Assembly (NCBI RefSeq): GCF_006345805.1
Contig: NW_021827027.1
Location: 1-11,346 of the forward strand
Reading direction: 5' to 3'
Source: Octopus sinensis
Lineage: Eukaryota
DNA: 11,346 nt
Shown here piece by piece: positions 950 through 10,678 of the stretch; within the stretch, counting starts at the first letter, position 1, and the number at the start of each line of letters is the position of its first letter. The translations under genes and the position numbers were made by a program. Below the pieces are notes generated by a model. The model was not told the DNA's origin, ran no database searches, and saw nothing but the letters and a program-made list of their open reading frames with translations.

Positions 950-1265
950 AAGGGTAAAAATCCACTTCGGTAATGAATGATCAGGGGACTGCATCTAGAA
1001 AGTTCCCCATCAAGGCACAAGTCTGGGCAAGGTTGTTTATGGAAGACCAGCAGTTGCCCATGCATGCCAGCCTCCCATCTCCATGCCACCGATGTTATCC
1101 GAGGGAAAGGCAAAAGAGGCTGATACAGCTTGGCACCAGTAGCATCGCAACTCATTCTACAGCTGAGTGAACTGGAGTGATGTGAAATAAAATGTCTTGG
1201 TCCAGGAATAGAACTCACTACCTCATAACTGTGAGCCTGGTGCTCTAACCACTGAGCCATGTACC
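950..1265 (-). mobile_element. tRNA-derived SINE, family D
   Basis: Minus strand starts CATGGCTCAGTGGTTAGAGCACC with A-box TGGCTCAGTGG (1249-1259) and B-box-like AGTTCTATTCC (1205-1215). A GC-richer ~250-bp body follows in an AT-rich background. The 3' boundary is approximate. Confidence 0.8.
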
Positions 1266-1314
1266 ATATATATAAATACACATGCCACGCATACACACAC
1301 ACACAACACATATA

Positions 1315-2884: not shown

Positions 2885-3177
2885 TATATGTATGTATGTA
2901 TGTATGTGTGTGTGTGTGTATGTGTGTCAGAGTTCTGTTTTGTATGTATGTGTGTATGTATGTTTGAGTGTGTGTATGTATGTATGCATGTGTGCATGTA
3001 TGTGTCTGTACGTATGCATGTGTGTATGTATGTTTGTGTGTGTATCTATGTATGTGTGTATGTATGGCATATGTGTGCATGTATGTGTGTTTGTATGTGG
3101 GCATGCATGTATGTATGTACATATATGTGTGTGTATGTATATATGTGTGTGTATGTATGTGTGCATGTATGTATGTG
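2885..3177. repeat. Compound (TG)n/(TATG)n low-complexity tract, left part
   Basis: Mosaic of tgtg, tatg and catg units; source of the spurious MCVY/HTYI ORFs. Confidence 0.95.
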
Positions 3178-3375
3178 TGGAAAACCACCATCCATGAGGG
3201 AACGGCGACTTTCGTGTCGAAAAGGTCTGCAGAGCTGGAGGAGAAAAGACGACGACGGAAGGAGCACCAACAACAACCACGTGCAACTCTCCCTTCCAGC
3301 ACTAGATGTCCGCACTGCGGCCGATCTTTTCAAGCAAGAATTGGTCTTATCGGTCATCTACGGATTCACCAGTAA
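3178..3375 (+). pseudogene. C-terminal remnant of RTE LINE ORF (basic helix plus C2H2 zinc finger)
   Basis: WKTTIHEGTATFVSKRSAELEEKRRRRKEHQQQPRATLPSSTRCPHCGRSFQARIGLIGHLRIHQ*. C-X2-C-X12-H-X3-H at 3307-3369. The W...G...F...R...KR..RK and RIGLxxH patterns are typical of RTE/BovB ORF ends. Confidence 0.85.
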
Positions 3376-3421
3376 ATTTGCACGAAGACCATCATCCTCA
3401 ACCTTGAGGGATTGCCATCAT
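3178..3421 (+). mobile_element. 5'-truncated RTE-clade (BovB-like) LINE 3' end
   Basis: Encodes an RTE-type C-terminus and a TAA at 3373-3375. The short 3' UTR has hairpin CCTCA-acct-TGAGG (3396-3409) and a short catcat tail. Candidate 20-bp target-site duplication at 3158-3177 and 3421-3440 (1 mismatch, but low complexity). Confidence 0.88.
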
Positions 3422-4144: not shown

Positions 4145-4450
4145 CAAAATTCCTTTCGTGAGGAACATGCTGAAGTACCATTCTTTGGTGTCTTGATCAG
4201 GTATTCTTGTACTTGTTTCAGCCATTTGACAGTGACCATGCTGGAGCACTGCCTTTAGTCAAACAAATCAACCCCAGTACTTACTCTCTGTAAGCTTAGC
4301 ACTTATTCTATTGGTCACTTTTGCCAAACCGCTAAGTTACAGGGAACGTAAACACACCAATATCGGTTGTCAAGCGATGGTGGGGGTACAAACACAGACA
4401 CACAAACATATATATGTATATATATGAACACATATATATATATATATATA

Positions 4451-4613
4451 TTCCTCTGTCTTCCATTCTCTGGATCTCTCCTTCTCCTATGTTTCCGACA
4501 AAGAGCTCCGCTCGAAACGTTAAACCCTCCTTCTTCCCTTCCTTCTTGAGCGTCCAATAATACTATATTTGTTCCACGTCCTCGTGTTGTTGTGTTTTCA
4601 TGTTTGGATTAAC
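4451..4613 (+). mobile_element. Short nested element, probable Penelope-like pseudo-LTR or retrozyme-type fragment
   Basis: 163 bp absent from the other A copies, flanked by (TA)n on both sides, containing a minimal hammerhead-like motif. Confidence 0.7.
4491..4525 (+). ncRNA. Degenerate minimal type I hammerhead ribozyme
   Basis: Stem I GTTT (4491-94) / AAAC (4522-25). Core CCGACAA+A versus canonical CTGANGA (2 substitutions). Stem II GAGC-tcc-GCTC (4503-13), GAAA (4514-17), palindromic ACGT stem III and GUU cleavage triplet. Confidence 0.7.
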
Positions 4614-4646
<33 letters not shown>

Positions 4647-4943
4647 TCACACGGCAGGTTTCTTTCAGTTTCCACCTACCAAATCCACTCACAAGGCTTT
4701 GGTTGGCCTCAGGCTTTGTTGAAGACACTTGCCTAAGGTACCACGTGGTAGGACTGAATCCAGAACCATGTGGTTGGGAAGTAAGCTTCTTACTACACAG
4801 CCATGCCTCAAGATTTGGGCCACATGAGACATGGATCATAATGAGATAGGCCACACTGCTAAAAAATATTTCCAGGTAGTTTTTCATTGGGTGTTCCATT
4901 CGGAAGTCCTTCAAACTAAAGTTAGCCCAAAACTGATTTATAG

Positions 4944-8135: not shown

Positions 8136-8427
8136 TTTATTTTTTTTTATGATCAGGCTATCAGATGTTGCTACATGTTGCTGGTCACAATGCAAACAGC
8201 CTTCAAATGACACCTCCCAGTTGGCTAAGCAAGCAGGCCAACAGAAGAAAGAGTGAGAGAAAGTTGTGGTGAAAGAGTTCAGCAGGGATCGCTACCACCC
8301 ACTGCCGGAGCCTTGTGGAGCTTTAGGTGTTTTCGCTCAATAAACACTCACGACACCCAGTCTGGGAATCGAAATCACGATCCTACGACCACGAGTCCGT
8401 TGCCCTAACCACTGGGCCATTGCACCT
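8136..8427 (-). mobile_element. tRNA-derived SINE, family E
   Basis: Minus-strand head GGTGCAATGGCCCAGTGGTTAGGGC with A-box at 8409-8419 and B-box-like ATTTCGATTCC at 8365-8375. GC-rich body ends at an A-rich tail (T-run 8136-8148 on +). Confidence 0.85.
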
Positions 8428-8618
8428 TTCCATATATATATATATATTTGAGCAACAAAGTTTTCCAACTACTGCATTTTCCAAATGTCCTCAAGAAGGG
8501 GTCATAACCCTGAAATACAAGATAAAACTGCAAATTTACATCGGTTTTGTTTTTCCTTTTGTAGTTCACTTTGTACCTGTTCACACTGTTCCAGTCTTAC
8601 ACAACAAATCTCTTTAAA

Positions 8619-9772: not shown

Positions 9773-10058
9773 ACGGCAGGCTTCTTTCAGTTTCAGTCTA
9801 CCAAATCCACTCACAAGTCTTTGGTCGGCCTGAGGCTATAGTAGAAGACACTTGCCCAAGGTGCCACGCAGTGGGACTGAACCTGGAATCATGTGGTCGG
9901 GAAGCATACTGAGGTAGAAGTTCAGTTTTTGATTTTGAGGCATGGCTAGCAGAAAAAGACATGAGAAAATGCAGAGCCAGGAGTGGCTGTGTGGTAAGTG
10001 GCTTGCTTGCCAGCCACATGGTTCCTGGTTCAGTCCCACTGCATTACCACACAGCCAC
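9773..10058 (-). mobile_element. SINE family A, copy A4 (5' module only; head split by inverted insertion)
   Basis: 9773-9906 aligns to A3 ~6162-6295. The head resumes at 10044 (ttaccacacagccac). The 3' module is absent. Confidence 0.9.
9908..10043 (+). repeat. Inverted copy of 10531-10666
   Basis: 136 bp, 5 mismatches and no gaps against the reverse complement of 10531-10666. Includes ~70 bp of non-SINE flank. Confidence 0.97.
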
Positions 10059-10208: not shown

Positions 10209-10596
10209 CTCTTTACTCTCTTTTACTGGAGCTCTGCCTTTAGCCGAAGAAATTGACCCCATTACTTGCGGGATTTGTAGGCCCCAGGTACTGTACGTTA
10301 TTCTATCGGTCTCTTTTGCCGAACTACTAAGTTACGGGGATGTAAACACACCAGCATCAGACACAAATGTATACACATACATACATACATATATATATAT
10401 AATATATATATATATATAAATATATATGTACATATATACGACAACTTCTTTCAGTTTCCATCTACCAAATCCACTCATAAGACTTTGGTCAACCTGAGAC
10501 TCTAGTAGAAGACACTTGTCCAAGATGCCATACAGTGGGACTGAACCTGGAACCATGTGGCTGGTAAGCAAGCCACTTACCACACAGCCACTCCTG
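10209..10596 (-). mobile_element. SINE family A, copy A5
   Basis: A-box (ccacacagcca on +, 10580-10590), B-box (gggactgaacc on +, 10537-10547), internal TA tract, and a 3' module with two ~30-bp deletions. Confidence 0.92.
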
Positions 10597-10678
10597 GCTC
10601 TGCATTTTCTCATGTCTTTCTCTGCTAGCCATGCCTCAAAACCAAAAACTGAACTTCTACCTCAGTGTGTTAGTCTGT

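What the first reader, a model, noticed from the sequence alone, without database searches (positions are those of the whole stretch)
4451..4613. Hammerhead-ribozyme-bearing mini-element nested in the (TA)n core of a SINE
Seen: 163 bp flanked by (TA)n splits SINE copy A2. It contains GTTT-CCGACAA-A-GAGC-tcc-GCTC-GAAA-C-GTT-AAAC, giving perfect stems I and II, GAAA, a palindromic ACGT and a GUU triplet. Established: Penelope-like elements and non-LTR retrozymes carry minimal type I hammerheads (CTGANGA...GAAA) whose short palindromic stem III forms in dimers. Inference: this is a non-autonomous, TA-microsatellite-targeting ribozyme retroelement that can land inside SINEs. This copy has U4>C and G8>A core changes, so it is probably inactive.
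Basis: partly seen in the sequence, partly recalled or inferred. Interest (0 to 1): 0.8.

Follow-up and report, generated by a model that had tools for sequence, protein, structure and literature searches.

The report
Penelope retroelement end, core-variant hammerhead
This 163-base insert is the end repeat of a very abundant Penelope-type jumping gene, not a separate mini-element; the altered letter in its ribozyme core is shared by most of the family, including intact copies, so the element likely spreads without needing its ribozyme to cut.

Summary
In detail: 4451-4613 splits a SINE at its (TA)n and carries a minimal hammerhead fold (0 of 3000 shuffles). The reading changes. The insert is the terminal repeat (pLTR) of an autonomous Neptune-type Penelope-like element: the same sequence flanks RT + GIY-YIG frames in 5.3-6.3 kb units, two with an unbroken 1008-aa frame. 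The family has at least 9,465 copies. U4C is not decay of this copy: 69 of 95 core-blind copies carry it, as do 99 of 100 in the youngest subfamily; only G8A is private. A sister family carries A6U in 100 of 100. No copy begins at the cut site (0 of 91); most are about 200-base solo pLTRs with a sharp 5' border. Likely mechanism: reverse transcription primed at (TA)n copies uncut RNA from the pLTR-ORF junction to the RNA's 5' end. Hammerheads in pLTRs (2014) and insertion without cleavage in vitro (2024) are published, and this scan noted the same architecture in other genomes. I did not find family-wide core substitutions in print, but one key paper (Lunse 2017) could not be read. Cleavage is untested.

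The parts
4451..4613 (+). 5'-shortened solo pLTR of a Neptune-type Penelope-like element (C4 subfamily)
   Evidence: About 90% identical over its full length to the 5' pLTR of ORF-bearing copy L164; top 39 other genomic hits 90-97%
4491..4525 (+). Minimal type I hammerhead fold (stem I 4 bp, stem II 4 bp, palindromic ACGU, predicted cut between 4521 and 4522)
   Evidence: Sequence; descriptor hit, 0 of 3000 shuffles; alignment of five family representatives
4495..4501 (+). Core CCGACAA: C at position 4 (4496) is family-wide; A at position 8 (4500) is a sporadic CpG-type change
   Evidence: position 4 C 69 / T 26 of 95; position 8 G 87 / A 6 / T 2 of 95
4408..4450 (.). (TA)-rich target microsatellite, left part
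4614..4639 (.). (TA)13 target microsatellite, right part
4200..4407 (-). Host SINE, left part (strand inferred from a tRNA-like head at the right end; recalled box motifs, not tested)
4640..4810 (-). Host SINE, right part
   Evidence: (family D14)

Best explanation
The insert is a shortened solo copy of the hammerhead-bearing end repeat (pLTR) of an autonomous Neptune-type Penelope-like retrotransposon, likely written into the SINE's (TA)n by that element's own endonuclease and reverse transcriptase from RNA the ribozyme had likely not cut. Shown: pLTR-ORF-pLTR parents; fixed 3' end at the pLTR-ORF junction; (TA)n flanks; sharp 5' border about 110 bases before the predicted cut site; no copy starting at the cut; C4 core in most copies and in intact parents. 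Inferred: transcription starts at that 5' border; the GIY-YIG domain nicks (TA)n; RT primes internally at the junction (which reads TTTATATA or TTATA and could pair with a nicked TA strand) and runs off the RNA's 5' end, giving mostly solo pLTRs. Also inferred: the U4C ribozyme is slow or protein-gated, so cleavage is not required for insertion, and the motif is still kept among master lineages. This copy, with G8A as well, is predicted to be inactive.
For: Parents. Of 10 close-RT loci, eight show a pLTR 3' of the ORF in the element's orientation at their correct strand setting and six have one on both sides; L155 was fetched on the wrong side and refetched as L283. L156 and L283 hold 1008-aa open frames with RT, CX4CX2C and GIY-YIG motifs; pLTR-to-pLTR spacing is 5.3-6.3 kb. 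Copy number: 9,465 exact 28-mer matches, reversed control 0. Ends: a 3' end was found in 91 of 100 copies, 80 of them with (TA)3 within 14 bases; 97 of 100 extend 64 bases or less upstream of the anchor. In a 3'-anchored sample, 0 of 91 start within 3 bases of the cut, 87 hold the whole hammerhead and 73 start at -125 to -80. Core: 3,556 exact CCGACGA against 971 CTGACGA. Position 4 is linked to an upstream site (64 C-C, 23 T-T, 8 mixed; p 3e-14), so these are real subfamilies. The young subfamily A' has C4 in 99 of the first 100 of 1,144. A 33-base identical block spans the hammerhead between two subfamilies whose flanks are 84% identical (p about 0.004, block chosen after seeing it). Precedent: internal RT initiation, and hammerhead mutants that insert normally in vitro (PMC11167929).
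Against: No cleavage, transcription-start or priming data. Only contigs were available, so RNA ends could not be read. [quoted passage not shown] Pfam scores for the 1008-aa frame are below cut-off (RVT_1 E 0.002, GIY-YIG E 0.02). The Neptune label rests on the Cys motif and domain order, not on a tree with reference elements. The absence of cut-site starts would also follow if cleaved RNA simply cannot complete insertion. The U4 subfamily also spread (26 of 95) and shows the same 5' border. Samples are the first 91-100 hits on one contig and favour well-preserved copies.
Confidence: 0.8

Rival explanations
1. Solo pLTRs are also their own masters: the roughly 200-base unit holds an internal promoter, reads into (TA)n and is re-copied in trans, acting as a SINE-like non-autonomous element (a reduced form of the first reader's idea).
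For: Sharp 5' border and about 95% short copies; short units in (TA)-spaced arrays behind L164; Penelope has an internal promoter in Drosophila (PMC2377424 passages); summed contig depth falls about 1000-fold past the junction (a poor measure).
Against: Both core subfamilies have ORF-joined copies; the border matches the 5' pLTR start of an ORF-joined copy (L282); no head-to-tail retrozyme monomers were seen among the loci examined.
Confidence: 0.2
2. The short copies are ordinary 5' truncations of cDNA begun at the 3' end of a full-length RNA, piling up at one place because RT stalls or finds TA/TG microhomology there.
For: Many 5' junctions fall where ATGTG can merge with TA or TG repeats; a few copies run on into the (CA)-rich 3' region.
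Against: Sixteen of 91 starts fall on one base (-110, TTCAAAATG), upstream of the microhomology, and few lie between there and the long forms.
Confidence: 0.25
3. The U4C hammerhead is functional in vivo with help from the element's protein and processes tandem transcripts at a step that leaves no mark on insertion ends.
For: The motif is conserved between subfamilies; stem I covaries G-C to C-G in the sister family; the Anolis PLE hammerhead cleaves only with protein; a viroid U4C variant keeps enough activity in vivo (PMC3088659).
Against: The youngest subfamily adds a U-U mismatch in stem I; the sister family changes another core base, A6U; the double-hammerhead fold lies 13-19 kcal/mol above the cofold minimum (the model ignores tertiary contacts).
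Confidence: 0.35

Closest known systems
Minimal hammerheads (min-HHR) in pLTRs of metazoan Penelope-like elements (Cervera and De la Pena 2014, PMC4209133)
   Same: Short stem I, extra base between 9 and 10.1, G10.1-C11.1, palindromic 15.2-16.2, mostly single motifs from truncated elements
   Different: Majority core is CCGACGA (U4C); stem II is 4 bp rather than the 7-8 bp described for Schistosoma
Neptune-clade endonuclease-bearing PLEs
   Same: RT, then Cys motif, then C-terminal GIY-YIG; pLTRs; partial tandems; microsatellite targets
   Different: 1.4-3 kb (CA)-rich 3' region; clade not tested with reference sequences
PAc (Poseidon, Anolis; PMC11167929)
   Same: Internal RT start near the pLTR-ORF junction, AT-rich targets, uncut RNA as substrate
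   Different: There the priming site is not homologous to the target and leaves a 30-40 base tail; here ends abut TTTATATA at the junction
Non-LTR retrozymes (10.64898/2026.07.22.740005, first part read)
   Same: Type I hammerhead, related to PLE pLTRs
   Different: Retrozymes are defined as tandem units each with a complete hammerhead; these are dispersed solo pLTRs with a coding parent

Membership tests
EN+ Penelope-like element | One ORF with RT and C-terminal GIY-YIG | tested here: met
   1008-aa frames in L156 and L283; Pfam RVT_1 and GIY-YIG hits weak, below cut-off
EN+ Penelope-like element | pLTRs flanking the ORF as a partial tandem | tested here: met
   L156, L157, L158, L160, L161, L164, L274, L283
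Neptune clade | CX2-5CxxC motif between RT and EN | tested here: met
   CSRSRCNTC before GIY-YIG; criterion (shared with Nematis)
Neptune clade | RT phylogeny with reference Neptune, Nematis and Poseidon proteins | not tested
   No reference proteins fetched
PLE minimal hammerhead | Stems I and II, extra base after A9, GAAA, palindromic stem III, NUH | tested here: met
PLE minimal hammerhead | Core CUGANGA (or U3-A8) | tested here: not met
   Window CCGACAA; family majority CCGACGA (54 of 95). CTGANGA is met by 23 of 95 copies only
PLE minimal hammerhead | Self-cleavage as a dimer | not testable with these tools
   Needs an assay
Non-LTR retrozyme | Tandem non-coding monomers, each with a complete hammerhead | tested here: not met
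   Copies are dispersed solo units or joined to an ORF; a few (TA)-spaced repeats occur (L164, L225); no genome-wide tandem search was run
Non-LTR retrozyme | Circular RNA | not testable with these tools
   No run on record as RNA, contigs only

The most novel reading that the evidence does not exclude
In this Neptune lineage the hammerhead has been turned from a cutter into a conserved non-cleaving or protein-gated RNA signal: two sister families broke the uridine turn at different bases (U4C, A6U), kept stem II and GAAACGU, and each spread to thousands of copies, with uncut RNA producing solo pLTRs as the main product. That would be natural in vivo evidence that PLE hammerheads are kept for structure rather than catalysis.
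Probability: 0.3. Interest if true: 0.6.

Novelty: new variant of a known kind. Interest (0 to 1): 0.35.

Why it matters
What PLE hammerheads do is an open question (stated). This genome supplies natural, recently amplified variants side by side (U4, C4, C4 with a stem I mismatch, U6, and a U3-A8 family), with intact parent ORFs, so cleavage can be compared directly with transposition success. The insertion itself is ordinary.

Tried and rejected
Rfam scan: no hammerhead match. A genome-wide GIY-YIG search first returned other PLE families with different 3' ends; none of 30 loci had this pLTR downstream. The upstream piece of L045 used belongs to another repeat (LINE-like by eye), a dead end. 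Rejected: U4 copies as mere CpG decay of C4 (linkage p 3e-14); U4C as private decay; SINE targeting (1 of 100, strict test). Polarity of U4 against C4 is not settled: ORF-joined U4 copies form a clade (96/96) inside C4 diversity when rooted on A', which fits a return to U4, but 5 of 17 rows were under half filled, L092 has mixed pLTRs and no clade test was run (two searches were unresolved or incomplete). Expression: no RNA holder listed. PDB sequence search: no hit. One search had a counting bug and was replaced. Lunse et al. 2017, which lists PLE hammerhead variants, is not held, so prior description of U4C or A6U there is open. Supplements of PMC4209133 and PMC3088659 were not read and may bear on this too.

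Full report
Observation. The 163 bases at 4451-4613 sit between two (TA) tracts and occupy the central microsatellite of a SINE whose other copies in the window lack them. A relaxed descriptor hits once in the window and in 0 of 3000 shuffles of the element. Rfam does not detect it, and the lowest-energy fold is a different hairpin. The host looks like an octopus genome; that is my recall of its SINEs and size, not a call result.

Family. The insert has 2,624 first-look candidates, of which 40 were scored, the 39 others at 90-97%. A 28-base pattern over the motif matches 9,465 times, reversed control 0, which is a lower bound. In 100 copies picked by flanks only, so blind to the core (first 100 of 3,780), a 3' end was found in 91, and 80 of those have (TA)3 within 14 bases. 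Only 1 of 100 was nested in this SINE by a strict two-flank test, so the target is (TA)n rather than the SINE.

Parent element. Walking upstream from long copies crossed a (CA)-rich region into RT and GIY-YIG coding sequence on the same strand in three of four stretches (L092, L093, L094; not L091). An RT search gave 150 scored matches of 7,967 candidates, in a close group and a 73-76% group. Among close-group loci, L156, L157, L158, L160, L161, L164, L274 and L283 have the repeat on both sides of the ORF, 5.3-6.3 kb apart. L156 and L283 have unbroken 1008-aa frames with a CX4CX2C motif before a C-terminal GIY-YIG, the layout given for Neptune elements (passages read). Pfam support is weak. 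L164 belongs to the window's own subfamily: its 5' pLTR aligns over all 163 bases and runs directly into the ORF leader. The finding is therefore a pLTR, not a separate element.

Core. Of the 100 core-blind copies, 95 had no indel and were counted; 5 were dropped. Position 4 is C in 69 and T in 26; position 8 is G in 87, A in 6. G8A is thus a sporadic CpG-type change and U4C is a family trait. Exact counts agree: 3,556 CCGACGA against 971 CTGACGA. Position 4 is linked to a site 12 bases upstream (p 3e-14), so U4 and C4 are separate subfamilies; divergence from column majorities is 5.0% and 2.8%. Subfamily A', which holds the intact frames, has 1,144 exact matches, C4 in 99 of the first 100 (hand count) and a U-U mismatch in stem I. 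In four public runs under four organism labels, T makes up 22-29% of summed contig depth at this position, so both forms are shared. Sister family B (RT about 75% identical) keeps stem II and GAAACGU, swaps the outer stem I pair from G-C to C-G, and has U at position 6 in 100 of the first 100 of 6,461 matches (hand count). Between A' and the window's subfamily the hammerhead lies in a 33-base identical block against 84% flank identity, modest evidence that the motif is under constraint.

Ends. In a sample anchored only 3' of the hammerhead (first 91 of 5,316), none starts within 3 bases of the predicted cut, 87 contain the whole motif, 73 start between -125 and -80, and 16 start on one base at -110. 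The window copy starts at -71. Nine alignments extend past -125, some of them spuriously.

Mechanism. Shown: parentage, ends, targets and core states. Inferred: the -110 border is the transcript start; the endonuclease nicks (TA)n; RT primes at the pLTR-ORF junction and runs off the 5' end of uncut RNA. This matches work on the Anolis element, where RT starts internally, hammerhead mutants insert normally and no reads end at the cut site (PMC11167929, parts 1-2 of 4 read). It differs in that priming there was not homology-based. Rivals: solo units as masters, truncation at a stall site, and a protein-gated but working ribozyme.

Comparison. Minimal hammerheads in pLTRs, mostly as single motifs from truncated copies and with low in vitro activity, were described in 2014 (PMC4209133, parts 1-2 of 4 read). 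U4C is known as a rare viroid variant with much lower in vitro activity (PMC3088659, passages and section 8). Searches for hammerhead + U4C, hammerhead ribozyme + octopus, octopus + Penelope + Neptune, solo pLTR + Penelope and Penelope + hammerhead + catalytic core + mutation (listing only) showed no report of a family-wide U4C or A6U core in PLEs. A 2026 octopus repeat annotation lists Penelope families and has no occurrence of 'ribozyme' (PMC13282606, passages). Lunse 2017 was not readable. Earlier notes of this scan describe the same truncated-pLTR pattern in other genomes; none matched this sequence or this genome.

Verdict. A real motif in a known kind of element, misread as a stand-alone mini-element. 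The family-wide core variants are a modest, testable twist. Interest 0.35.

Noticed in passing
L165-L174; G000 pattern count: Sister PLE family B: at least 6,461 copies, core CUGUYGA (A6U), stem I UCUUU/AAAGA, long open RT frames.
   Followed up: partly
L061-L090, 250-1200 bases after GIY-YIG: A third Neptune-like family ends in a hammerhead-like motif with U3-A8 core (TTGATAA, stem GGTTC/GAACC, GAAACATGT) in 15 of 30 loci.
   Followed up: partly
L282:420-1800, L278, L280, L226: pLTR - 5' ORF fragment - pLTR units of 0.4-1.2 kb, suggesting template jumps; also inverted pLTR pairs (L006, L059/L060).
   Followed up: partly
window 9905-10044 and 10530-10669: 140-base inverted duplication, 96% complementary, of a SINE end plus flank, around another SINE copy.
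   Followed up: no
window 3177-3420: Fragment encoding a C2H2 finger (CPHC...HLRIH), resembling the C-terminus of an RTE-type LINE (label recalled), inserted in a (TG/TA) tract.
   Followed up: partly
L092, L282 and other U4-type pLTRs, about -113: TCATTC at the 5' border resembles an initiator element (consensus recalled, untested); C4 copies often read TCTTTC there.
   Followed up: no
window 1196-1266 and 8210-8430: Further tRNA-like SINE pieces (Rfam tRNA E 0.51 at 1197-1266).
   Followed up: no
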